This document shows, in pieces, positions 25,364 through 36,205 of a stretch of 37,772 nt of DNA (positions within the stretch are counted from its first letter, which is position 1; each line of letters opens with the position of its first letter). Made by a program: the position numbers and the translations under genes. The notes under the pieces were generated by a model. It was not told the origin of the DNA. It was given only the letters and a program-made list of their open reading frames with translations, and did not search any database. The DNA is taken from IMG/VR virus record IMGVR_UViG_2690316076_000005, positions 1-37,772 of that record. One strand, written 5' to 3'. This DNA is from a virus. Lineage: Duplodnaviria > Heunggongvirae > Uroviricota > Caudoviricetes.

Positions 25364-25753
25364 TCAGGCGGCTGCACCCGCCGTTTTCTTGTACTTACTG
25401 ATAGTGATCTCGACCTTCCCTTTCGGGATAACCGGTCCCCACTCCACCAGCATTCTTTTCACCTGTCTGTCGTCTTCCCACACACCCGCGTGGGTCAGGG
25501 CGTCAAACAGCGCCTTGTTATAGTTGTCCAGATCGCGGATCCGGTTATCCGGAGGAAACAACACGATCTCCACTGAAGCAGGTGCCGACGTTGGTTTTGG
25601 CAGACGACGTAACTGCTCAACTATTGCTGCGCACGCCGCGCTCTGAAATTTTCGCCCCGCCGCGCTTATCAGGCTCTTACCAGCAAATTCCCCTTTGTTG
25701 GGGTGTCGCCAGTACGAGTTCACGCTGGGCGGGAAAGGCAGGATCAGCTTCAT
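25364..25753 (-). CDS. rusA: RusA-family Holliday junction resolvase
   Basis: 129 aa; PPSVNSYWRH...DLDNYNKALFDALTHAGVWEDDRQV matches RusA motifs. Confidence 0.85.
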   Translation of the reverse strand: MKLILPFPPSVNSYWRHPNKGEFAGKSLISAAGRKFQSAACAAIVEQLRRLPKPTSAPASVEIVLFPPDNRIRDLDNYNKALFDALTHAGVWEDDRQVKRMLVEWGPVIPKGKVEITISKYKKTAGAAA

Positions 25754-26076
25754 ACTTTCAGGCCTCTCTCATGTAACCAGTGGGCTGCACGCAGCCTGGC
25801 GTTTTCCTCACCGGCAAGCAGTGAGCGGATAATCCCGACCGCCTCGCTGTCGTCGTCCTTCACCGCGGTATGAAGAGTGATACCCCGGGCCACGCCACGC
25901 TTTATCGTGATGACGCCTTTTTTCTCCAGTGCGCGAAGATGTTCCACCGCTGCATTCACTGAACGGTATCCCAGCATGGTTGCCACCTCCTGATTGGTTG
26001 GCGGGAAGCCACGTTCTTTCTGGTAAGAAATCAGCATATCCAGCACCTGCTGCTGGCATTGAGTTAACGTCGTCAT
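25750..26076 (-). CDS. LexA DNA-binding-domain-like protein lacking the S24 peptidase domain
   Basis: 108 aa; LTQCQQQVLDMLISYQKERGFPPTNQEVATMLGYRSVNAAVEHLRALEKKGVI aligns along its length with the LexA N-terminal winged helix; no Ser/Lys protease domain; ATGA overlap with the upstream methylase gene. Confidence 0.65.
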   Translation of the reverse strand: MTTLTQCQQQVLDMLISYQKERGFPPTNQEVATMLGYRSVNAAVEHLRALEKKGVITIKRGVARGITLHTAVKDDDSEAVGIIRSLLAGEENARLRAAHWLHERGLKV

Positions 26077-26726
26077 GCCGCCATCTCCCTGACCAGTTTT
26101 TCCGCCTGCTGGCGAACCTGCGCCAGAAACGCCTCACCACATGCCTCAAGTTCATCGCGCCAGATGTAGCTGATTGCCGGTCCCTTCCAGGTCTTGTCGA
26201 AAACAGCAATAGCACCAGCGAAGAAAGCGCCTGTCGGCACCTGCTTCTCGTCCTTCGGTATAAACCAGGCAGGCAGTTCAAAACCAATACGCCCGCGAAT
26301 AAAAGCAATATGATCTGCATCTTCCGGCCACCACACTTCGCTGGTGGCCGCTTTGATCAGGAAAACATAGCGCCCGCCCTTATCACGCATGGCACTGGCA
26401 TGTTTCATGATGTAACGCATGCCGGTGATGTATTGCCCCTCATGCTGACTGGCGCGGCTGTATGGGGGATTACCAAAGGCAGCACCTTTAAGCTCCGCAA
26501 GACGTTCTGACCAGTCATGCGCCAGCGCGTTATCTTCCGCCGTGTAATACGCGGCACATTTGGCGTTATCACCGTCAGTAAACAGATCCAGAACAAACGG
26601 GCCAAACAGAGTGTTAATTCCCCAGAAAATGTTGTCCGGCGTGCGCCACTGATCGCCCACTTCCTTCAGTTCATGGGCTGGTTTGTTCCGCAGTTCCACC
26701 AGCTCCTGGCAATATTTATTACTCAT
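26073..26726 (-). CDS. DNA N6-adenine methyltransferase (phage Dam-like)
   Basis: Start at the internal ATG overlapping the upstream stop; FGNPPY catalytic motif. Confidence 0.8.
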   Translation of the reverse strand: MSNKYCQELVELRNKPAHELKEVGDQWRTPDNIFWGINTLFGPFVLDLFTDGDNAKCAAYYTAEDNALAHDWSERLAELKGAAFGNPPYSRASQHEGQYITGMRYIMKHASAMRDKGGRYVFLIKAATSEVWWPEDADHIAFIRGRIGFELPAWFIPKDEKQVPTGAFFAGAIAVFDKTWKGPAISYIWRDELEACGEAFLAQVRQQAEKLVREMAA

Positions 26727-27214
26727 TAAGCCCCCACGTAATTCCCTGACAGATACCACTCATCACCCGATACAGCGCGCTTGCTGCTTTTCCGTAAACA
26801 CTGCTCACGACGCGCCAGAAAATTGTTTCGTTCTGGCTGGGAGTGGCTTTCTCGGAATGCCGCCATCCACACCGTTGCAGCACGACGGTATAAGCCCCTG
26901 GACTCCAGTTCTTCCGCCTGGCGGGTCAGGCACAAAATCACCCGGGGATCGTTAGTGCCGACATAGAAATTGCGCACAGGTCTGGTTTCACGAACTGGTT
27001 GTGGTTCCGGCTCCTGCGCTCTCTCGGTCAGGCGTGGGAAATGTCTGCGTGTATCTCCTTCACAACGGTGAGCCACACGCCCACTCTGACGTAACTTGCT
27101 TGCTGACTGCAGAACGCGCTGCCGTGAGTAACCTGCAAAAGCATCCGCAATGTCTCCGGAAGTACATCCCGGATGGGCTTCAATGAATTTCTGAACTTCA
27201 TTCAAAAGACTCAT
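26726..27214 (-). CDS. putative PerC/ANR-like regulator with N-terminal winged-helix-like region
   Basis: LTRQAEELESRGLYRRAATVWMAAF resembles the PerC-family core; assignment from memory, weak. Confidence 0.4.
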   Translation of the reverse strand: MSLLNEVQKFIEAHPGCTSGDIADAFAGYSRQRVLQSASKLRQSGRVAHRCEGDTRRHFPRLTERAQEPEPQPVRETRPVRNFYVGTNDPRVILCLTRQAEELESRGLYRRAATVWMAAFRESHSQPERNNFLARREQCLRKSSKRAVSGDEWYLSGNYVGA

Positions 27215-27216
27215 GA

Positions 27217-28209
27217 TCACCCCCTGAATCCTGCCGGGATCTGGCTGTAGTCCACGTTGTCGTAACTGGCTTTGAAGTACGGGTCTTCACGTTTTTCTGT
27301 GTGCGTGCTGACGGACGGCGATAAGCGCAGGGAAAGCTCATCCCATTTTTCCCGCAACTTCGACGGGCTGAGCACGTTACGGCACCAGAACGGATCGCGG
27401 CTGACGCGGCTGTACATCTCGCAGATTTGTTTGTGAGTACGACCATCCTGCACACACATCAGGCGAATTTCGTTTGCCCATGCTGTCCAGTTCGGCTCTT
27501 TGGGACGAACCACCTCGCCGTCACATTCGGCGGCCTGCTCGTACAGGGCGATGATTTTTTTCCAGAGCCACTGTGCGCAGGTCAAATCATCCTGCGTTCC
27601 CCACTGGCGCTTTTTAGGGCTGAATACAACCGCATCAGGATGGCGAGTTAAAAACTCCTGTTCAGCCGTTTGCATGTCCGGTTGCGAAGCGTCCGGACGA
27701 GAAGAGGTTTTATTCTCTGTAGTAATCTCTGTTGTATTCTCTGTAAGATCATTGGGCCATTTTGACCCGATGACAGCGTGTCGTTTTGAACCAATGGATC
27801 GTGTCATTTTGCGCCCATCCATCAGGTCACTTTGACCCGATGGAGAAGTGCATTTTGACCTGATGGATTCGTTCACTTTGACCTCTTCTAAAAGCTCACT
27901 TTCATAGTTGATCGTGTAGAAGTTGGTCATGTCACGCTTCGATTTATTGAGTTGCTCGCGACGCAAAACCCCAAGTGATTTCAGGCTTGCAAATGTGCGT
28001 TTCAGAGTGGACTCTGACCAGAACGGAAACTGCTCCAGCCACTGTTCTGTCGTGTTATAAACCCAGCGAATTCCGCCATGCTCAGTGCCTGAATTCGTTT
28101 CATTCAGCCAGTAATGAAGCTGCTGCAACACAATTGCCTCATTCAGACCAATACGGCATGCAAGATCACGATTTATCACAATGGGCTGGGATGTCATTAA
28201 CAGGCTCAT
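27217..28209 (-). CDS. replication initiation protein (O-like N-terminus, DnaT-like C-terminus)
   Basis: 330 aa; iteron array inside the gene; C-terminal region resembles the primosomal DnaT-like domain seen in prophage replication proteins. Confidence 0.7.
   Translation of the reverse strand: MSLLMTSQPIVINRDLACRIGLNEAIVLQQLHYWLNETNSGTEHGGIRWVYNTTEQWLEQFPFWSESTLKRTFASLKSLGVLRREQLNKSKRDMTNFYTINYESELLEEVKVNESIRSKCTSPSGQSDLMDGRKMTRSIGSKRHAVIGSKWPNDLTENTTEITTENKTSSRPDASQPDMQTAEQEFLTRHPDAVVFSPKKRQWGTQDDLTCAQWLWKKIIALYEQAAECDGEVVRPKEPNWTAWANEIRLMCVQDGRTHKQICEMYSRVSRDPFWCRNVLSPSKLREKWDELSLRLSPSVSTHTEKREDPYFKASYDNVDYSQIPAGFRG
27758..27883. repeat. iteron array (candidate origin of replication) inside the replication gene
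   Basis: Six copies of about CAyTTTGACCyGATGG at about 23-bp spacing (27758, 27782, 27804, 27828, 27851, 27874) plus one inverted copy (27817-27827). Confidence 0.7.
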
Positions 28210-28218
28210 GACCGACCT

Positions 28219-28557
28219 CTATTTCCCTGAATTTACGACGAAACTGTTCGAGCGGACTGAAGCATTCATGCTCATAGCCTTCGCGGAGGTAGATAACCCG
28301 TTGTGTTTCCGGTTCCCAACGAATGACTCTGACGGGCACTCCGTAGTGATCTTTGAACCAGCGGTTAACTTGTCGCAAAGGACTGTCTCCTTCTGCCGGT
28401 TGAAATCACCCACAGCCCACTCAGCAAAGCTGTGGGTTACAATTTCCCTGTCACCTGGTACATTCACTGCATAGCAATATTCCACCTTCGCTTTTCCACC
28501 CGGTACAGGAAGCGCAATCAGTTGCGAGCGACGGTAGTGTGTTGTTAAACTGTTCAT
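28219..28557 (-). CDS. hypothetical protein
   Basis: 112 aa; ATG with SD ggaga and ATGA overlap with the upstream gene; stop 10 nt before the replication gene start; an alternative-frame ORF overlaps it. Confidence 0.35.
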
Positions 28558-29105
28558 GCGTTAGTTTCTCCACAGTCACGACACGCCACGGCGCCCGGAG
28601 CTGCACACTCGCGGGCGTCACTACTTTCTGAAACGCAAAAGATTTTGTAGACCAGTGCTGCATGCTCCTGCAGCTTCGAAATTGAGAGGTACAGCTCATC
28701 GTTAATTGCTGTCTTCTCATGCGGTTCCACTACACCGTCTTCAATTGCTGAACGAATCTGTTTTGAATAACTGCCGATCTGTTCAATGACTTCCAGCAGG
28801 CGTTGGTTGATATCGGCGTTGTCCACATCCTCGACGTCAGGAAGAGACACAAAGACGCCATTTGCAGACTGCGCCACAGCGTCAGCAATGAAGTGAGTGC
28901 CACCAGCACGCTGTAAAACCATTGCCCATCCCAGCGGGAAAATCTGATCGCCATCTGCACGAAGGCGGTTGAATAAAGCGTTCTCTGTTACATCCAGCCA
29001 GTCAGCAGCTTCAGCGTAACCCCCAGGCAATGCCGCGATAGTTTTTCTGACAGCTTTCACGTACCACTCGGGTTGTTTTTCCACTTTCCAATGATGCTTA
29101 CCCAC
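28554..29105 (-). CDS. early regulatory protein in the cII position (possibly CP76/CII-like)
   Basis: 183 aa; GTG start with strong SD aggagg; sits between cro and the replication genes. Confidence 0.4.
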
Positions 29106-29358
29106 GGCTTACCTCCTGTTCCTGTGGTTTAAACCCATTCTGGTTTTGGCTAGATTGAAAACGTGCCGGATAAAGAATCTGCATTTCGCTGATTTCACCC
29201 TTAAAAAAATTGGCCAGACGTTCTGCAAGATCGATAGATGGAATTTGTTCCAGTCTTTCAATACGACTTAGCGTCGCTGGATTGACCTGAACGCCCGCAG
29301 CAACATGCTGCAAAGTAAATCCGTGCGCCTTACGCACATTCCGTAATGGTGATTGCAT
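29098..29358 (-). CDS. Cro-like HTH repressor
   Basis: 86 aa; helix-turn-helix GFTLQHVAAGVQVNPATLSRIERLE; divergent from cI. Confidence 0.8.
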   Translation of the reverse strand: MQSPLRNVRKAHGFTLQHVAAGVQVNPATLSRIERLEQIPSIDLAERLANFFKGEISEMQILYPARFQSSQNQNGFKPQEQEVSRG

Positions 29359-29455
29359 ATAACCTCCACATATTGCGTGATGAGCATATTATTTCACGCA
29401 AATATTTTGCGCAAGTTGATTTGCTTAACGCGCAATAAAGAAATGTAATAAACGC
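29359..29455. promoter_or_regulatory. divergent cI/cro promoter-operator region
   Basis: TTGCG/CGCAA half-sites at 29373, 29397, 29407 and a perfect TTGC-N6-CGCAA 15-mer at 29421-29435. Confidence 0.6.
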
Positions 29456-30148
29456 ATGAACATAGGAAATCGAGTCAGACAACTTCGCCAGGCGAAGAAC
29501 ATGAAAATCGCCGATCTCGCTGAAGCAATAGGAGTGGATGCGGCGAATATCTCGCGCCTCGAAACAGGTAAGCAGAAACAATTCACTGAACAAGCCCTGA
29601 GTAATATTGCCAGGAGCTTAGGTGTTGATATTGCTGATCTCTTTACCTCAGACCTCAAAAGTAATACTGTATGTAAAAACAGTATTAGTGAGGATGTTGC
29701 GCAGGTGAAGGATGTATTCCGTATTGAAATGCTGGATGTCAGTGCCAGTGCGGGAAATGGCCTTATCCAGGGCGGTGATGTCATTGATGTGATTCATGCC
29801 ATTGAATACAGAACTGATAATGCTGTATCGATGTTTGGTGGACGACCAGCAAATCACATTAAAGTTATCAACGTTCGTGGGGACAGTATGTGTCCAACCA
29901 TTGAGCCAGGAGATCTCATCTTCGTTGATATCAGTATCAATCAGTTTGATGGGGATGGTATATATGTATTTGGTTTTGATGATAAAATTTACGTCAAACG
30001 ACTGCAAATGATACCTGATAAACTGCTGGTAATTTCTGATAATCAGATTTACCGCGAATGGGGAATTACCAGCGAAAACGAACACCGGTTTATGGTCTTT
30101 GGAAAGGTCTTAATCAGTCAGTCACAGACCCTTAAGCGACACAATTAA
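29456..30148 (+). CDS. CI-type repressor (HTH plus S24 LexA-like autopeptidase domain)
   Basis: 230 aa; N-terminal HTH; C-terminal VRGDSMCPTIEPGDLIFVD and later K typical of S24 peptidases. Confidence 0.9.
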   Translation: MNIGNRVRQLRQAKNMKIADLAEAIGVDAANISRLETGKQKQFTEQALSNIARSLGVDIADLFTSDLKSNTVCKNSISEDVAQVKDVFRIEMLDVSASAGNGLIQGGDVIDVIHAIEYRTDNAVSMFGGRPANHIKVINVRGDSMCPTIEPGDLIFVDISINQFDGDGIYVFGFDDKIYVKRLQMIPDKLLVISDNQIYREWGITSENEHRFMVFGKVLISQSQTLKRHN

Positions 30149-30256: not shown

Positions 30257-30450
30257 TCTTTCCAGACCTACAAACAAGGTACTAACAAAATTTGGTTGTA
30301 ACACGGTGCATGTGTCGTAAGCAGTCAGTAAATGTCAAAAACGAACAAGCAGGACGCCCACGAAGTAGCCGCCTGGGGCATATGAAGTCAAGGATGATTC
30401 GTTGAGTCATGTAGTGCCACTAGGCACTCATGTTAAAGCAGGTGTATGAA

Positions 30451-30726
30451 ATGAAAGTCCAGATTTTAAACAATAACTGTGAAGTCGTTTGGTCATACGA
30501 CATAGCCGCCCCTGTAGATCAGAGCGGCGATAGCTGGGCCAATGGGAAACATCAGATTATGGCTGGAGTTGTATTCTCTTTACGCCGTGCTTTAGAACAG
30601 GCTGAAGTCTTTCCATCAGACCCTGAATGGAAATGGCCTTTTTCTATTTGTCCAAATTCGGAGAGTACATTTCAGAAAATTGGTCAGAAAGTCGCACTCG
30701 AAGAGCATCAGCCAACTGTTTCCTGA
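30451..30726 (+). CDS. hypothetical protein in the rex/N position
   Basis: 91 aa from the second ATG with SD aggtg; not arginine-rich, so not obviously N-like. Confidence 0.35.
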   Translation: MKVQILNNNCEVVWSYDIAAPVDQSGDSWANGKHQIMAGVVFSLRRALEQAEVFPSDPEWKWPFSICPNSESTFQKIGQKVALEEHQPTVS

Positions 30727-30889
30727 TTTTTTCAGGTAACTCGTCGGCATCGCAGAAACAACAACGCTCGATCATGTTGAAAGCCGATTCGTAGAACTGT
30801 TTCTGCTGAGTGTCGCTGACACAGGAAAAGAGCGACGTTACGATGATTTTATTAATTGCATTATCAAGTTCTTTTTCATCAAAAGTCAT
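30644..30889 (-). CDS. hypothetical protein, convergent and 3-prime-overlapping with the previous ORF
   Basis: 81 aa; ATG with SD-like aagga; overlaps 30451..30726 by 83 nt on the opposite strand, so at most one may be genuine. Confidence 0.3.
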   Translation of the reverse strand: MTFDEKELDNAINKIIVTSLFSCVSDTQQKQFYESAFNMIERCCFCDADELPEKIRKQLADALRVRLSDQFSEMYSPNLDK

Positions 30890-31142
30890 TTGATTTTCCT
30901 TTTATGTATACGGGCTTAAAAGGATACCACCGAGCCTGAAGTGGTGAAAAGACAGGCACATAACAGCTAAGTATTTTCAACCAGAGAGAATCCTTAGCGT
31001 TGTGGTGAATGCGGCTCAGCGCACGCGGGTTAAGGTTGAGGCTGACAGTCGACCTTCTGTGGATACCCACCCGCCTGGTGTGCAACCTTCGCCAGGCACC
31101 GGGAGGCACCCGGCACCACAACTTTATGCTGTGTGTAGTCCT

Positions 31143-31189
31143 GGCGGTACCAGCTTGTATCCTTGCTTCCGGCTGGTACCGTCCTTTTT
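31143..31189 (+). terminator. candidate intrinsic terminator (tL1-like) in the early-left leader
   Basis: 10-bp perfect stem cggtaccagc/gctggtaccg (12 bp with G-U), 17-nt loop, then C and TTTTT (31185-31189). Confidence 0.5.
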
Positions 31190-31278
31190 ACAAAACAGAG
31201 AAGAGCATCACCGGACGACGGGCTCATAACCCAATCCATCCGGGCGGCTGCCACCGCTGGTGTTCTTCTCTGTTTTGT
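31190..31278 (+). other. long-range inverted repeat / structured leader element
   Basis: caaaacagagaaga (31191-31204) pairs perfectly with tcttctctgttttg (31264-31277); encloses about 55 nt of GC-rich sequence; ends 36 nt before the SD of the first early-left gene. Confidence 0.45.
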
Positions 31279-31326
31279 GGAGAAACCAACCGACCTTGCA
31301 GGGTCGATATAATGAGGAGCAGCAAA

Positions 31327-31689
31327 ATGGCTAGCGAACGCAGTACTGATGTGCAGGCATTTATCGGGGAGCTGGACGGCGGCGTATTTGAAACCAAAAT
31401 CGGCGCAGTTCTCAGTGAAGTCGCTTCCGGTGTGATGAACACGAAAACCAAAGGTAAGGTCTCACTCAACCTGGAAATCGAACCATTTGATGAGAACCGT
31501 GTGAAAATCAAACACAAACTCTCATATGTTCGCCCGACTAACCGCGGGAAAATTTCCGAAGAAGACACCACCGAAACGCCGATGTATGTCAATCGCGGTG
31601 GTCGCCTGACTATTCTGCAGGAAGACCAGGGACAGTTACTGACTCTTGCCGGTGAACCTGACGGAAAACTCCGCGCAGCAGGTCGTTAA
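31327..31689 (+). CDS. YfdP-like early protein
   Basis: Start at the ATG with SD gaggag; the track's upstream extension from 31009 has junk-like composition; followed by YfdQ/YfdR-like genes. Confidence 0.5.
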   Translation: MASERSTDVQAFIGELDGGVFETKIGAVLSEVASGVMNTKTKGKVSLNLEIEPFDENRVKIKHKLSYVRPTNRGKISEEDTTETPMYVNRGGRLTILQEDQGQLLTLAGEPDGKLRAAGR

Positions 31690-31754
31690 TATCGTTTTTA
31701 ATTAACTGATTATTTATCTCATCACTGAATATCTTTATATAGTGAGGACTTATT

Positions 31755-32579
31755 ATGTCTCAGAACTTAGACGCAACCGCAATTAATCAAATCCATGCCC
31801 TTATTTCTGCTCAGGGTGTTAATGAAATTATCAGTAAGATTGGTGCCGATGCTGTGGCATTGCCTGAGCATTTCCGCATTCATGATCTGGAAAAATTTAA
31901 TTTAAATCGCTTCCGTTTCCGTGGTGCGCTTTCCACTGCCAGCATCGATGACTTTACCCGTTATTCTAAAGATCTTGCAGATGAAGGCACCCGCTGCTTT
32001 ATCGATGCTGATAATATGCGTGCCGTCAGTGTGCTTAACCTGGGTACTATTGATGAGCCAGGTCACGCAGATAACACCGCCACACTCAAACTGAAAAAGA
32101 CAGCACCGTTCTCTGCTCTGTTGTCTGTTAACGGCGAGCGTAACTCCCAGAAGTCACTAGCAGAATGGATTGAAGACTGGGCCGACTATCTTGTGGGCTT
32201 TGATGCTAATGGTGACGCTATTCAGGCAACAAAAGCGGCTGCGGCTGTCCGTAAAATCACGATTGAAGCAAACCAGACCTCTGATTTTGAAGATAATGAC
32301 TTCAGCGGCAAACGCTCCCTGATGGAGTCTGTCGAAGCGAAGACCAAAGACATTATGCCAGTGGCATTTGAATTTAAATGCGTTCCGTTTGAAGGTCTGA
32401 AAGAACGTCCGTTTAAATTACGCCTCAGTATTATCACTGGCGATCGTCCTGTACTGGTTCTGCGCATTATTCAGCTGGAGGCGGTGCAGGAAGAAATGGC
32501 TAACGAATTTCGTGATCTGCTTGTTGAGAAATTCAAGGACAGCAAAGTAGAAACCTTTATTGGTACTTTCACCGCCTGA
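31755..32579 (+). CDS. YfdQ-like protein (DUF2303)
   Basis: 274 aa; size and synteny with the HD-domain gene as in CPS-53 yfdQ-yfdR (memory). Confidence 0.55.
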
Positions 32580-32706
32580 TTTCATTACTGCAAATGCCCC
32601 TGCGGGGGCATTTATGGAAACGTAATTTACTCAATAATCGCCGGATGGTGAGGGATTCTTTTTGCCAGAATTCAGCGCGGTGCAGCGCATATACGTGGAG
32701 AACAAA

Positions 32707-33243
32707 ATGTCATTTATTAAAACTTTTTCCGGGAAGCATTTTTATTATGACAGGATAAATAAAGACGACATCGATATTAACGATATCGCGGTTTCCCTTT
32801 CAAATATCTGTCGCTTTGCCGGTCATCTTTCGCACTTCTACAGCGTCGCCCAGCATGCGGTGCTTTGCAGCCAGCTGGTGCCGCAGGAATTTGCTTTTGA
32901 AGCGTTAATGCATGATGCAACAGAAGCGTATTGCCAGGATATTCCCGCTCCACTGAAACGCCTTCTTCCTGACTATAAACGGATGGAAGAAAAAATAGAC
33001 GCCGTAATCCGTGAGAAATACGGGTTACCTCCTGTTATGAGCACGCCAGTGAAATATGCCGATCTCATTATGCTGGCAACCGAACGCCGTGATCTCGGGC
33101 TTGATGATGGTTCTTTCTGGCCTGTACTGGAAGGTATCCCGGCAACAGAGATGTTCAACGTGATTCCACTGTCACCAGGCCATGCCTACGGGATGTTTAT
33201 GGAACGTTTTAACGAGTTATCGGGGTTACGCAAATGCGCATGA
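32707..33243 (+). CDS. HD-domain phosphohydrolase (YfdR-like)
   Basis: Start at the internal ATG (MSFIKTFSGKHFYYD); HD motif ALMHDATEAY; 178 aa. Confidence 0.75.
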   Translation: MSFIKTFSGKHFYYDRINKDDIDINDIAVSLSNICRFAGHLSHFYSVAQHAVLCSQLVPQEFAFEALMHDATEAYCQDIPAPLKRLLPDYKRMEEKIDAVIREKYGLPPVMSTPVKYADLIMLATERRDLGLDDGSFWPVLEGIPATEMFNVIPLSPGHAYGMFMERFNELSGLRKCA

Positions 33244-33650
33244 ATGTTTTCGAAATGGAAGGGTTTCTTCGCGGGAAATGTGTACCGCGAGATCTGAAAG
33301 TGAACGAAACAAACGCTGAGTACCTGGTGCGTAAATTTGCTGAAGCTGAGGCCAAGTGCGCGGCGCTGGCAGTGGAGAATGCAGGAATAAAGTCTGCAAT
33401 TCCCCAACCACGGGATATTGAGGATGACAATGACAATATGGATGACGTATCTCTTGCTGAAGATTTCGGGTTCAATCATGCAATAGAACGGATGAGGAGA
33501 CGGATTCCTGAAACACCAGCCACCGACGCTTTCCTGGCTGAAGTACGGGCGCAGGGCGTGGAGATGTTTGCGGAGTGTGCATACACACTTGAACATCATG
33601 ATCACGCAGTAGCTTTTGCCGCCGAGCTACGTAAAGGAGGCAACCAGTGA
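33240..33650 (+). CDS. hypothetical early protein
   Basis: 136 aa from the ATG overlapping the upstream stop (ATGA). Confidence 0.45.
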   Translation: MNVFEMEGFLRGKCVPRDLKVNETNAEYLVRKFAEAEAKCAALAVENAGIKSAIPQPRDIEDDNDNMDDVSLAEDFGFNHAIERMRRRIPETPATDAFLAEVRAQGVEMFAECAYTLEHHDHAVAFAAELRKGGNQ

Positions 33651-34366
33651 GCAAGATTGATTATCAGGCACTGCGTGAAAAGGCAGAGAAAGCAACTAAA
33701 GGAAGCTACATCGTAGGGCATACATCTGTTAACCAGCACGGCAATTTAACAGGAGTTTTTGTTTGTCAAAAATGGAAAGGAGAACCCGGTGGTGTGATTG
33801 CGGAATGTCATGTTAACTGCCTGGTTGAAACAGATATTCAGGCTTATGCAAACGCTGAATTTATTGCTGCCTTTAATCCAAAGGTTGCTTTGGCACTACT
33901 GGATGAACGGGAAAGAAACCAGCAGTACATCAAACGCCGCGACCAGGAGAACGAGGATATTGCGCTAACGGTAGGGAAGCTGCGCGTTGAGCTTGAGGAA
34001 GCAAAATCAAAACTCAACGAGCAACGCGAGTATTACGAAGGTGTTATCTCGGATGGGGGTAAGCGTATTGCTGAACTGGAAAAACAATGCGCCGAATGGG
34101 AGCGAAAAGCATTAAGCAACTTTGAAGAGTGTGCTGCGATGGCTGAACGTATCGAAGAGATGAGTAAGCAAAGTTGCGAAGCCCGGGAGCGTGATTTATT
34201 TGAATCATGGGTAATGCATTCAATTTGTATTTCCAAATCGACGCTTGAAGGATTGCGCACCGAAACTGGATACCGTAATGCGACCTTATCAGGAACAGAC
34301 TTCAACCGCATGTGGGAACAATGGAAATCTATCCGCGCCGCAGGAATTCGCAAAAGGGAGATTTAA
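33647..34366 (+). CDS. Ea22-like coiled-coil early protein
   Basis: 239 aa; N-terminus MSKIDYQALREKAEKA and coiled-coil middle typical of Ead/Ea22-like prophage proteins. Confidence 0.5.
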   Translation: MSKIDYQALREKAEKATKGSYIVGHTSVNQHGNLTGVFVCQKWKGEPGGVIAECHVNCLVETDIQAYANAEFIAAFNPKVALALLDERERNQQYIKRRDQENEDIALTVGKLRVELEEAKSKLNEQREYYEGVISDGGKRIAELEKQCAEWERKALSNFEECAAMAERIEEMSKQSCEARERDLFESWVMHSICISKSTLEGLRTETGYRNATLSGTDFNRMWEQWKSIRAAGIRKREI

Positions 34367-34397
34367 TAATCATGATGTACCGTAAAGAGGAAGCCAA

Positions 34398-34889
34398 ATG
34401 ACAGCACTCAACAAACAGGTGCTGCTGAGCACCGATAAACACGCAAATCAGCACCGACTTTCTCGCCTTACCATGGAAGTGCATAGCGATGAGCTTCGTA
34501 TTATAGCGTCAGCAGTAGAGAGCTATACCGACGAGTTGATAGCAGCGCTGGAAGCCGCAGAGAAGCGCAACGCAAAATTACAAAGCGAGAATGCATACAT
34601 CCGAAACCGGTTCAAAGAACTGGACCTGTTAATCGGGAAAAACATTCTGGTCATGCAGGCTGCGATTATCGAATGGCAGGCAACTGGCGACGCTAAAAGC
34701 GGACTGGCATGGATTTATAACACACTGTTTGGCCCTGGCGAATTGCCGGACGAATCTGAGAAAGATGCTCAGGCCTACTTTAATCGCAAATATGCACCGA
34801 TTGACGAAAAGCTTATGGCGCTTCACAAGTGGTTTTGGGAACAAAGTGAAGCCGAGCGCGCCGCTGGCATTCGCATAAAAGGAGAGTGA
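34398..34889 (+). CDS. Ea22-like / hypothetical coiled-coil protein
   Basis: 163 aa; N-terminus MTALNKQ; C-terminal AAGIRIKGE resembles the AAGIRKREI end of the previous gene. Confidence 0.45.
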   Translation: MTALNKQVLLSTDKHANQHRLSRLTMEVHSDELRIIASAVESYTDELIAALEAAEKRNAKLQSENAYIRNRFKELDLLIGKNILVMQAAIIEWQATGDAKSGLAWIYNTLFGPGELPDESEKDAQAYFNRKYAPIDEKLMALHKWFWEQSEAERAAGIRIKGE

Positions 34890-34890
34890 T

Positions 34891-35082
34891 ATGAACGGAC
34901 AAATCTCAATTGTTCGACCGGGAGCATGTGACGATCGCGAGATACGAATGATTATTCGTCTGGCGATGGGGAAAACAATAACAGCTCTCATTACTCCAGA
35001 AAATCTCGCATTAGCTTTAACCGGAAAGTCAGACCTGCCAGTAGAGCTAAAGCTGCGAAATGTTGAGATTAAGGTGAAATAG
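34891..35082 (+). CDS. hypothetical small protein
   Basis: 63 aa, tightly packed in the operon. Confidence 0.4.
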   Translation: MNGQISIVRPGACDDREIRMIIRLAMGKTITALITPENLALALTGKSDLPVELKLRNVEIKVK

Positions 35083-35084
35083 CT

Positions 35085-35633
35085 ATGACCACTATTACCA
35101 AAGAACGTATCGAATTATTCATTAAAAATCCGCTTGAAAACGGGCTTACTCGTGGCGAACAAATGGAACTGGCACGAATTGCACTGGCATCACTGGGAGC
35201 AGAACCTGTAAGCCAAACTTACAACTTGCCAGAATTAATCGAAGGCATGGAGGTTTCCATTGATGTAAGCACTTGTGATGCGGATTTAGGTAATCGCTAT
35301 TTCGGTACCGTCACCGAGGCGTTAGAACTTGATACTGCCAAGAATGGTTACATCCTCCTAGTTCAGGACGCAGAGCCAAACTTCGATGTAAATGGCAACT
35401 CTCCGGGAACTCCGGATAGTTGGATAAGCTGTAGTGATCGAATGCCTGAAAAGGGCCAGAACGTGCTTATTTCGGTGAATTTCGATAGCTCTCAGGTTGA
35501 ACCGCTAATATGCTCCGCACGCTATACCGGAAGCACCTTTCGGCGCGGAGATGCAACGATTAAGCCGGGTAATGGTATTGAGCAAGCAACTCACTGGATG
35601 CCGCTACCGGAACCGCCGCTGGAGGTGAAGTGA
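35085..35633 (+). CDS. DUF551-domain protein
   Basis: C-terminal THWMPLPEPP motif typical of DUF551. Confidence 0.6.
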   Translation: MTTITKERIELFIKNPLENGLTRGEQMELARIALASLGAEPVSQTYNLPELIEGMEVSIDVSTCDADLGNRYFGTVTEALELDTAKNGYILLVQDAEPNFDVNGNSPGTPDSWISCSDRMPEKGQNVLISVNFDSSQVEPLICSARYTGSTFRRGDATIKPGNGIEQATHWMPLPEPPLEVK

Positions 35634-36205
35634 TGAACAACTTAATGATCGACCTTGAGACGATGGGGAAAAATAAGGATGCACCGATCGTTTCCATTGG
35701 CGCGGTGTTCTTCACTCCAGAAATCGGAGACATCGGACAAGAATTCTATACGGTTGTTAGCCTGGAAAGTGCTATGGAGCAAGGAGCTACACCTGACGGC
35801 GATACCATCCTGTGGTGGTTGAAACAAAGCCCTGAAGCACGAGCTGCAATCTGTATTGATGATACTTTGTCGATCAGCGATGCTCTCTCAGAACTAAATC
35901 ATTTCATTAACCGGCACGCAGACAATACGAAATATTTAAAAGTCTGGGGTAACGGAGCCACCTTCGACAACGTAATTTTACGTGGAGCTTATGAGCGAGC
36001 AGGACAAATCTGCCCGTGGGCATACTGGAATGACCACGATGTACGCACGATCGTTACGCTTGGGCGTTCCATCGGATTCGACCCCAAAATGGACATGCCT
36101 TTCGATGGCGAACGGCACAACGCCCTGGCTGATGCCCGTCATCAGGCAAAATATGTTTCCGCTATCTGGCAGAAATTAATTCCTGCCACCAGCACAGAAT
36201 TATGA
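35630..36205 (+). CDS. 3-prime to 5-prime exonuclease (DEDDh-like)
   Basis: MIDLETMG (Asp/Glu motif I) and HNALADARH (motif III) typical of DnaQ-like prophage exonucleases. Confidence 0.75.
   Translation: MMNNLMIDLETMGKNKDAPIVSIGAVFFTPEIGDIGQEFYTVVSLESAMEQGATPDGDTILWWLKQSPEARAAICIDDTLSISDALSELNHFINRHADNTKYLKVWGNGATFDNVILRGAYERAGQICPWAYWNDHDVRTIVTLGRSIGFDPKMDMPFDGERHNALADARHQAKYVSAIWQKLIPATSTEL

What the first reader, a model, noticed from the sequence alone, without database searches (positions are those of the whole stretch)
27758..27883. Iteron array inside the replication initiator gene
Seen in sequence: six direct repeats of about CAyTTTGACCyGATGG at about 23-bp periodicity plus one inverted copy, all inside the replication gene. 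Established knowledge: lambda ori lies inside gene O and consists of iterons bound by the initiator. Inference: this is the phage origin.
Basis: partly seen in the sequence, partly recalled or inferred. Interest (0 to 1): 0.45.

Follow-up and report, generated by a model that had tools for sequence, protein, structure and literature searches.

The report
Phage replication origin inside initiator gene
The six repeats are real and are almost certainly the binding sites of this prophage's replication origin, embedded in its own initiator gene as in phage lambda. That layout is ordinary, but this origin type is untested and its DNA motifs are conserved in phages of very distant bacteria.

Summary
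Six copies of C[AG]YTTTG[AC][ACG]C start at 27758, 27782, 27805, 27828, 27851 and 27874, spaced 23-24 bp. This is the strongest periodicity in the 37.8-kb window. The copies lie in codons 107-151 of a 330-aa O-like initiator gene (27217..28209, minus strand).

They fall in all three reading frames. Across 32 diverged relatives, synonymous-site variation collapses there (0.94 to about 0.35 bit), so the constraint is on the DNA.

Just downstream in gene sense are three 12-bp repeats (27711-27746), the least stable DNA in the gene.

The N-terminal domain is a predicted winged helix, closest in fold to RepA_N plasmid initiators, whose origin also lies inside their gene. The C-terminal domain is homologous to lambda O.

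In 15 of 17 homologues examined, from Proteobacteria, Firmicutes and Bacteroidota phages, the same N-domain is followed by 22-24-bp repeats. In 13 of 17 it is followed by two or more CAGA(G/T)A copies.

No helicase or loader gene is present, an "O-only" module that the literature calls unstudied. Origin function is well supported by comparison but has not been tested. I rate it a new member of a known kind.

The parts
27217..28209 (-). O-like replication initiator gene (330 aa) that contains the origin
   Evidence: ORF. PHROG 391 'replication initiation O-like', E 1.3e-101, full length. No Pfam or NCBIfam family. 98% identical to the 'Primosomal protein I' gene of phage mEp460_4F5.
27889..28209 (-). 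Codons 1-107: N-terminal winged-helix domain, the inferred iteron-binding domain
27867..27889 (.). Iteron 1 in gene-sense order; + strand ATTCGTTCACTTTGACCTCTTCT; one half diverged
27844..27866 (.). Iteron 2; + strand AGAAGTGCATTTTGACCTGATGG
   Evidence: (0 mismatches to the consensus).
27821..27843 (.). Iteron 3; + strand ATCAGGTCACTTTGACCCGATGG.
   Evidence: (inverted repeat I2).
27798..27820 (.). Iteron 4; + strand ATCGTGTCATTTTGCGCCCATCC; degenerate core. The HannyBb-type homologue has a good core at this position.
27775..27797 (.). Iteron 5; + strand AGCGTGTCGTTTTGAACCAATGG
27751..27773 (.). Iteron 6; + strand ATTGGGCCATTTTGACCCGATGA; dyad 7/9; next to the 12-mers
27711..27746 (.). Three tandem 12-mers (gene sense ACAGAGAATACA / ACAGAGATTACT / ACAGAGAATAAA); inferred DNA-unwinding or loading element
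   Evidence: Repeat family D5. The least stable 45-mer of the gene is 27709-27753, in the top 0.8% of the window. GC minimum 0.37. 100% identical in homologues that are about 78% identical overall. The CAGA(G/T)A motif recurs next to the iterons in 13 of 17 distant homologues, in different frames in TP21-L and mv4. Codon-choice test p 2e-8.
27703..27707 (.). Mosaic joint. Towards lower + coordinates (gene-sense downstream, the C-domain side) the gene is 97-98% identical to SfIV/SfII-type O genes. On the other side the two are unrelated.
   Evidence: similarity from the 3' end extends 489 nt, to + coordinate about 27705.
27220..27702 (-). Codons 170-330: C-terminal domain homologous to the C-domain of lambda O, which in lambda binds P
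   Evidence: BLASTP against lambda O: 33% identity over 148 aa, E 2e-26. No Pfam family and no solved structure.
26726..27220 (-). Gene in the position of lambda P, but a PerC/MarR-like transcription factor and not a helicase loader
   Evidence: PF06069 PerC, E 1e-9. PHROG 1324 'transcriptional activator'. No helicase, loader or primase family among the other early genes tested.

Best explanation
The segment at about 27705-27890 is the vegetative (theta-type) replication origin of a lambdoid prophage, written into the linker-coding middle of its own initiator gene.

Proposed mechanism, with the status of each step:
1. The gene is transcribed from the early-right promoter through the origin (gene order shown; the role of transcription is inferred from lambda).
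2. Dimers of the N-terminal winged-helix domain bind the six 21-bp pseudo-palindromic iterons, which are spaced 23 bp apart and each centred on an A-tract (the sites and the predicted fold are shown; binding is inferred). Together they build an O-some-like nucleoprotein complex.
3. The stress of this complex opens the adjoining 12-mer repeat region, the least stable DNA of the gene. The conserved CAGA(G/T)A sequence suggests that one strand is also read specifically, as with the 13-mers of oriC and RK2 oriV (inferred).
4. The lambda-O-like C-terminal domain then brings in the host helicase. How it does so is unknown, because the phage has no P, DnaC-like, helicase or primase gene (the absence is shown; the route is open).

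The N-domain, the iterons and the 12-mers behave as one exchangeable cassette that is fused to different host-adaptor C-domains.
For: The repeats are real and are the strongest periodicity in the window.

The constraint is on the DNA, not the protein:
- The six copies use reading frames 2, 1, 0, 2, 1, 1.
- In 32 sequences less than 97% identical, third-position entropy is 0.94 bit in the N-domain, 0.34-0.36 bit in the array and 0.16 bit in the 12-mers.
- NCA-GAK codon pairs make up 33/38 in the 12-mer zone against 22/72 elsewhere, p 2e-8.
- The CAGAGA motif is read in different frames in TP21-L and mv4.
- Phage AF lacks most of the array yet keeps both domains.

The domain and its sites are inherited together. 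The SfIV-type gene has the same C-domain at 97-98% identity but a different N-domain and different 15-bp-period repeats, with the joint at about 27705. The same N-domain plus array is joined to at least two other C-domain types.

Conservation is wide:
- 22-24-bp periodicity follows the N-domain in 15 of 17 phages of E. coli, Klebsiella, Erwinia, Pantoea, Pseudomonas, Staphylococcus, Bacillus, Lactobacillus, Listeria, Burkholderia, Vibrio, Bacteroides and Flavobacterium.
- At least 587 IMG/VR loci encode the N-domain.
- 1840 of 5426 complete E. coli genomes match the N-domain-plus-iteron DNA.

A 43.7-kb circular extrachromosomal record carries this O-only module and no other replication gene in the 8.3-kb stretch of it that I inspected. 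For the analogous 80alpha ORF20, which has a different N-domain, genetics place the origin inside the gene (PMC5499656).
Against: - There is no experimental evidence for this family: no autonomous replication test, no footprint and no marker-frequency data. None was found in the papers searched.
- The low-stability region is only about 63-70% A+T, much weaker than the lambda AT-rich tract.
- Two of the six copies are degenerate.
- The N-domain has no detectable sequence relation to lambda O (hhalign probability 0.3%), to RepA_N, or to G38P/80alpha gp20. DNA binding therefore rests on a predicted fold, with weak Foldseek E-values of 0.04-0.1.
- With no loader encoded, a complete initiation pathway cannot be written. 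PMC12315714 states that replication of O-only lambdoid phages is not understood.
Confidence: 0.82

Rival explanations
1. The repeats are a by-product of a repetitive, low-complexity protein linker (for example a repeated G-S-K / T-E-x-T peptide made by slippage) and have no function as DNA.
For: The region encodes a hydrophilic linker with recurring xGSKx and TExT peptides. The three 12-mers are in one reading frame in the window.
Against: The 23-bp period is not a multiple of 3, and the six copies are read in three frames as different peptides: EEVKV, IRSKC, SGQSD, DGRKM, IGSKR, IGSKW. Variation loses its codon periodicity and synonymous sites are frozen. Codon choice in the 12-mers is fixed even in GC-rich hosts. 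The same DNA motif is read in other frames in TP21-L and mv4. Phage AF does without most of the linker.
Confidence: 0.03
2. The repeats bind the initiator (or another regulator) but serve control rather than initiation, for example autoregulation, copy-number handcuffing or incompatibility. The true start site of replication would lie elsewhere, for example in an intergenic region.
For: Iterons in plasmids have both roles. Binding is the only activity the sequence can suggest, and nothing here locates the first nucleotide synthesised.
Against: The array sits directly beside the least stable DNA of the gene, and that DNA is co-conserved with it across phyla. No promoter-like site lies in or near the array (0 found, 1.1 expected). 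In the three experimentally studied systems with this layout (lambda, SPP1/80alpha, pSK41) the in-gene sites are the origin. Nothing else in the window approaches this periodicity; the next-best hits are weak and unexamined (autocorrelation 0.46-0.47).
Confidence: 0.08
3. The conserved block is a recombination 'linker' that promotes module exchange between phages (a mosaic boundary sequence), and this explains its high nucleotide conservation.
For: The mosaic joint with SfIV/SfII-type genes lies exactly at the edge of the 12-mers, at about 27705. The 12-mer block is 100% identical between genes that are about 78% identical overall.
Against: Conservation extends to phages of other phyla that cannot recombine with this one, and it is motif-level rather than sequence identity. 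The iterons differ between N-domain types, which is the opposite of a shared crossover sequence. A joint at a domain boundary is expected anyway, because only such hybrids are viable.
Confidence: 0.05

Closest known systems
Phage lambda ori-lambda inside gene O (four iterons plus an AT-rich region; O-some)
   Same: - Same genomic position: the first gene after cII in the early-right operon.
- The origin lies in the middle of the initiator gene.
- Pseudo-palindromic iterons of about 19-21 bp, centred on a CAAAA-type A-tract, at 20-24-bp spacing, followed in gene sense by a low-stability purine-rich tract.
- The C-terminal domain is homologous (33% identity, E 2e-26).
   Different: - The N-terminal domain is not PF04492 and shows no profile similarity to lambda O.
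- Six iterons with different arms.
- Instead of an AT-rich tract without tandem repeats, there are three 12-mers with a conserved CAGA(G/T)A motif.
- No P gene follows.
RepA_N plasmid initiators of Firmicutes (pSK41 / pTZ2162 Rep; PDB 4pta, 4pql, 5kbj)
   Same: - Three-part layout: a winged-helix N-domain of about 110-120 aa, a linker encoded by the origin with the binding sites centrally within the gene, and a host-specific C-domain (PMC5703833).
- The binding sites contain A-tracts.
   Different: - No sequence-level match to PF06970.
- It is a phage rather than a plasmid.
- The C-domain is unrelated (lambda-O-like here; a DnaG-binding five-helix domain in pSK41).
- Six sites against four.
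Replisome organisers SPP1 G38P (oriL in gene 38) and 80alpha ORF20 (origin embedded in the gene)
   Same: - Initiator with an internal origin.
- 80alpha ORF20+21 are sufficient for autonomous replication, and the ORF20 deletion cannot be complemented in trans (PMC5499656). The 80alpha record annotates a putative rep_origin inside gp20.
- Relatives of the window's protein (Kp4882-3, AH07) appear to carry the same 'conserved phage C-terminus' domain as G38P/gp20. This is read from shared sequence motifs and annotation and was not tested by alignment.
   Different: - The N-domains are unrelated by BLAST.
- The repeats differ.
- Those phages encode a loader (80alpha) or a loader plus helicase (SPP1). 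The window's phage encodes neither.
13-mer unwinding repeats of E. coli oriC and RK2 oriV
   Same: Two to four tandem repeats of about 12-13 bp lie beside the initiator-binding sites, in the least stable DNA, with strand asymmetry. That Rep proteins bind these elements as single strands in a sequence-specific way is from my own knowledge and was not tested.
   Different: - The sequences are unrelated.
- The element lies inside a coding region.
- Unwinding and single-strand binding are untested here.

Membership tests
Lambda-type origin (ori inside an O-type initiator gene) | Several repeated, dyad-symmetric initiator sites in the middle of the initiator's coding sequence | tested here: met
   Six units at 27751-27889 within codons 107-151. 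Arm agreement 4-8 of 9.
Lambda-type origin (ori inside an O-type initiator gene) | Low-stability / A+T-rich region immediately downstream (gene sense) of the iterons | tested here: met
   27709-27753 is the least stable 45-mer of the gene and in the top 0.8% of the window. GC is 0.37. It is weaker than in lambda.
Lambda-type origin (ori inside an O-type initiator gene) | Initiator N-domain of the Phage_rep_O family (PF04492) | tested here: not met
   No Pfam hit even at E 10, while lambda O scores 5.7e-36 in the same call. hhalign probability 0.3%.
Lambda-type origin (ori inside an O-type initiator gene) | C-terminal domain homologous to the lambda O C-domain | tested here: met
   33% identity over 148 aa, E 2e-26.
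Lambda-type origin (ori inside an O-type initiator gene) | Partner helicase-loader gene (P or analogue) next to the initiator | tested here: not met
   The downstream gene is PerC-like. No loader, helicase or primase family is found in the early genes of the window. This matches the 34 of 314 'O-only' lambdoid phages of PMC12315714.
Lambda-type origin (ori inside an O-type initiator gene) | The segment supports initiator-dependent replication and the initiator binds the repeats | not testable with these tools
   This needs cloning and footprinting. The only circumstantial evidence is a 43.7-kb circular extrachromosomal record with the same module.
RepA_N initiators | RepA_N domain (PF06970) at the N-terminus | tested here: inconclusive
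RepA_N initiators | Origin (Rep boxes) centrally within the rep gene, encoding a dispensable linker, with a host-specific C-domain | tested here: met
   Position shown. Phage AF naturally lacks most of the linker. C-domains are swapped among hosts. Dispensability was not tested experimentally.
PHROG 391 'replication initiation O-like' | Full-length profile match | tested here: met
   E 1.3e-101, residues 1-330 on profile positions 1-298 of 298.
SPP1 G38P / 80alpha ORF20 replisome organisers | Homologous origin-binding N-domain | tested here: not met
   BLASTP finds nothing significant between the window's protein (or P954, TP21-L) and gp20 or G38P.

The most novel reading that the evidence does not exclude
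The N-domain, the 23-bp iterons and the CAGA(G/T)A 12-mers form an ancient, portable origin cassette shared by phages of Proteobacteria, Firmicutes and Bacteroidota. In this reading the 12-mers are not a generic A+T-rich melting region. They are a sequence-specific element read on one strand, either by the initiator itself or as helicase-entry or primase-start sites (the complement carries TCTG). That could be what lets 'O-only' phages load the host helicase without any phage-encoded loader.
Probability: 0.25. Interest if true: 0.65.

Novelty: new member of a known kind. Interest (0 to 1): 0.4.

Why it matters
The layout, an origin inside the initiator gene, is textbook. This particular initiator and origin type has no Pfam or NCBIfam family, no solved structure, and no experimental study that I could find.

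It is nonetheless common. DNA matching it is present in 1840 of 5426 complete E. coli genomes, and at least 587 IMG/VR contigs encode the N-domain.

It belongs to the 'O-only' lambdoid replication modules, which a 2025 survey explicitly calls not understood (PMC12315714). A precise origin map (six iterons, three 12-mers, domain boundaries, natural hybrids) gives a ready design for the cloning, footprinting and helicase-loading experiments that could explain how such phages recruit DnaB.

The cross-phylum conservation of the DNA motifs also gives a simple way to annotate origins in many unrelated phage genomes.

Tried and rejected
1. Link to the Rac prophage origin oriJ. Rac ydaU is a DUF1376 protein, unrelated to this gene, so I dropped it.
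2. Homology of the N-domain to lambda O, 80alpha gp20 or SPP1 G38P. None was found by BLASTP or hhalign.
3. Pfam and NCBIfam assignment of either domain gave none. A PDB sequence search also gave none.
4. The search for homologous proteins with the 107-aa N-domain returned only short or partial proteins (all under 190 aa). It gave no view of domain architectures and was used only to build the alignment for structure prediction.
5. The search for related loci kept only the 80 closest IMG/VR loci (79-100% identity). That was good for the synonymous-site test but not for diversity, which came from GenBank phages instead.
6. Weigel & Seitz 2006 ('Bacteriophage replication modules') is not held, so I cannot exclude that this origin type was predicted there.
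7. A full-text search for the motif strings found only unrelated primers.
8. An internal promoter as an explanation: no sigma-70-like site in 27100-28400.
9. The Stx-phage 'Eru' replication types (PMC8044961) are different modules.

Full report
**Context.** The window is most of a lambdoid prophage. Around the finding the gene order on the minus strand is:
- cI-like repressor (29456..30148, + strand)
- cro-like gene (29098..29358)
- CII/CP76-like gene (28554..29105)
- two small ORFs
- a 330-aa gene (27217..28209)
- a PerC-like gene (26726..27220)
- Dam methylase, a small LexA-like gene, RusA, then a Q-like antiterminator

The 330-aa gene is 98% identical to 'Primosomal protein I' of phage mEp460_4F5. 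It matches PHROG 391 'replication initiation O-like' over its full length (E 1e-101). It has no Pfam or NCBIfam family.

**The observation.** Cores start at 27758, 27782, 27805, 27828, 27851 and 27874 on the + strand, with 23-24-bp spacing.
- A relaxed core pattern matches only these six sites on that strand in 37.8 kb.
- Lag-23 autocorrelation is 0.57, against a best-lag shuffle mean of 0.35 (sd 0.02, maximum 0.49). It is the strongest periodicity anywhere in the window.

Two copies are degenerate. Each 23-bp unit is really a 21-bp pseudo-palindrome, in gene sense ATCrGGTCA-AAr-TGACCyGAT. The 'inverted copy' (27817-27829 against 27856-27868, 13/13 complementary) is one arm of such a unit. The design is palindromic arms around a CAAAA-type A-tract at a spacing of about 23 bp. 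Lambda's annotated iterons have the same design, ATCCCTC-AAAAC-GAGGGAT with spacing 20/24/23.

**DNA element or coding by-product?** Five independent lines say DNA.
1. The six copies lie in reading frames 2, 1, 0, 2, 1, 1 and are translated into unrelated peptides.
2. I took 32 sequences less than 97% identical, drawn from 80 IMG/VR loci plus phage records. Third-codon-position entropy is 0.94 bit in the N-domain, with 0.25 and 0.13 bit at positions 1 and 2. It drops to 0.34-0.36 bit across the array and 0.16 bit in the adjacent 12-mers, and there all three codon positions vary alike.
3. The HannyBb-type genes are about 78% identical overall. They keep the array but have a good core where the window has a degenerate one, and the reverse. 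This is turnover with the number of sites maintained.
4. Phage AF keeps both protein domains but only one or two units, so the protein does not need the encoded peptide.
5. A gene with the same C-terminal half (SfIV, 97-98% identical up to + coordinate about 27705) has a different N-domain. It also has different repeats at the same place (CCGTCAAAATCTGAC, 15-bp period).

Directly downstream in gene sense lie three tandem 12-mers, ACAGAGAATACA / ACAGAGATTACT / ACAGAGAATAAA (27711-27746).
- This is the GC minimum of the gene (0.37).
- It contains the gene's least stable 45-mer, in the top 0.8% of the whole window.
- It is the peak of nucleotide conservation against the 78%-identical homologues, at 100%.

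**The protein.** Residues 1-107 fold with mean pLDDT 87.8 as a winged helix.
- Foldseek gives TM 0.60-0.65 to 4pql, 4pt7 and 5kbj (a Rep-DNA complex), but with weak E-values.
- There is no sequence relation to lambda O's N-domain.
- Residues 147-294 are homologous to the C-domain of lambda O (33% identity, E 2e-26).

The protein therefore has three parts: DNA-binding domain, origin-encoded linker, adaptor domain. pSK41 Rep has the same plan. Its N-domain binds four Rep boxes centrally within rep, its origin-encoded linker is dispensable and its C-domain is host-specific (PMC5703833).

**Comparative evidence across phyla.** A tblastn search with the N-domain finds 123 phage records from many hosts. 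I examined 17 genes by eye and by autocorrelation:
- Proteobacteria: E. coli (2), Klebsiella (2), Erwinia, Pantoea, Pseudomonas (2), Stenotrophomonas, Burkholderia, Vibrio
- Firmicutes: Staphylococcus, Bacillus, Lactobacillus, Listeria
- Bacteroidota: Bacteroides, Flavobacterium

In 15 of the 17 the strongest periodicity just after the N-domain is 22-24 bp. The units are palindromic arms around CAAAATG or CAAATTG.

In 13 of the 17 these are followed by two to four copies of CAGA(G/T)A, spaced 10-15 nt, usually 12. The motif is 66-fold denser there than in the rest of the genes. That figure is inflated, because I chose the densest window in each gene.

The second motif is also constrained as DNA:
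- In Bacillus TP21-L and Lactobacillus mv4 successive copies are in different frames.
- Where it encodes T/P/A followed by E/D, the codons are NCA-GAK in 33 of 38 cases, against 22 of 72 elsewhere in the same genes (Fisher p 2e-8). This holds in GC-rich Burkholderia and Pseudomonas phages too.

The same N-domain-plus-origin block is fused to at least three kinds of C-domain. These are lambda-O-like, the 'conserved phage C-terminus' apparently also present in SPP1 G38P and 80alpha gp20, and DnaD-like.

**How common it is.**
- 1840 of 5426 complete E. coli genomes match the N-domain-plus-iteron DNA, 224 of them at 95% identity or more.
- 90 PLSDB records carry the domain, many of them non-mobilizable circles of about 40-60 kb that look like phage genomes.
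- One is a 43,680-bp E. coli circle with exactly this gene order.

**Mechanism.** The best-supported reading is a lambda-like origin. Initiator dimers on six iterons form a wrapped complex. That complex opens the neighbouring 12-mer region, and the C-domain then recruits the helicase.
- Shown: the sites, their DNA-level constraint, their linkage to the domain, the stability minimum and the domain homologies.
- Inferred: binding, opening, and everything about helicase loading.

Helicase loading is genuinely open. None of the ORFs I scanned, which cover both early regions, matches a P, DnaC-like, helicase or primase family. The shortest ORFs were not scanned. A 2025 survey reports that 34 of 314 lambdoid phages are 'O-only', that none has been studied, and that their replication 'is not yet understood' (PMC12315714). 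For a different initiator with the same layout, 80alpha ORF20, genetics support an origin embedded in the gene (PMC5499656).

**Rivals.**
- A protein-repeat by-product is contradicted by the frame, synonymous-site and codon-choice tests.
- A purely regulatory role for the sites cannot be excluded without mapping initiation. It is disfavoured by the co-conserved unstable element, the lack of promoter-like sites and precedent.
- A recombination-linker role does not explain motif conservation between phages of different phyla.

**Verdict.** This is an origin of a well-known kind in a common but experimentally untouched initiator family, hence 'new member of a known kind'.

The parts that go beyond the textbook are the sequence-specific 12-mer element, its conservation with the iteron spacing across three phyla, and the loader-less module. 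I could not read Weigel & Seitz 2006, so earlier in-silico descriptions cannot be ruled out.

Noticed in passing
window 27711-27746 (and L006-L013, L097-L103 at the equivalent place): Three tandem 12-mers carrying CAGA(G/T)A lie next to the iterons. The motif is conserved as DNA in phages of Proteobacteria, Firmicutes and Bacteroidota: codon choice is fixed, and it is read in different frames in TP21-L and mv4. A plain AT-rich melting region would not need a fixed sequence.
   Followed up: yes
window 25364-27220 and 30282-36205: The replication module is 'O-only'. The gene in lambda P's position is a PerC/MarR-like regulator, and no helicase, loader or primase family is found among the early genes. 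This matches the unstudied class described in PMC12315714.
   Followed up: partly
window about 27705: There is a sharp mosaic joint. The C-terminal half of the gene is 97-98% identical to SfIV/SfII-type O genes, whose N-domain and repeats are unrelated. The joint sits exactly at the gene-sense 3' edge of the 12-mers.
   Followed up: yes
window 27217-27245 (last residues ...DYSQIPAGFRG); L015-L094: The C-terminal tail [DY]S.IP.GFR[GS] is shared by O-like proteins with two unrelated C-domains (lambda-O-like and 'conserved phage C-terminus'). It may be a short docking motif for a host protein.
   Followed up: no
window 28166-28557: Two same-strand ORFs overlap by 160 nt in different frames, and both have family support: 28166..28378 (DUF4222, E 1.5e-18) and 28219..28557 (PHROG 1170, E 1e-69). 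The DUF4222 ORF also overlaps the initiator's start by 44 nt.
   Followed up: no
window about 29281-29450: A lag-34 periodicity (autocorrelation 0.47) lies in the cro/cI divergent region. These are probably the operators of the immunity region.
   Followed up: no
L104 (NZ_CP081704.1, E. coli AH02 'plasmid unnamed3', 43,680 bp, circular): A lambdoid phage genome with the same O-like / PerC / Dam / LexA-like / RusA order is deposited as a non-mobilizable plasmid. It may be an extrachromosomal replicating form.
   Followed up: partly
L005 (SfIV) gene nt 300-460: The SfIV-type O gene has five or more repeats of CCGTCAAAATCTGAC at 15-bp spacing, followed by an A-rich tract, at the equivalent position. 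This is a second, different in-gene origin type that shares the GTCAAAAT core.
   Followed up: partly
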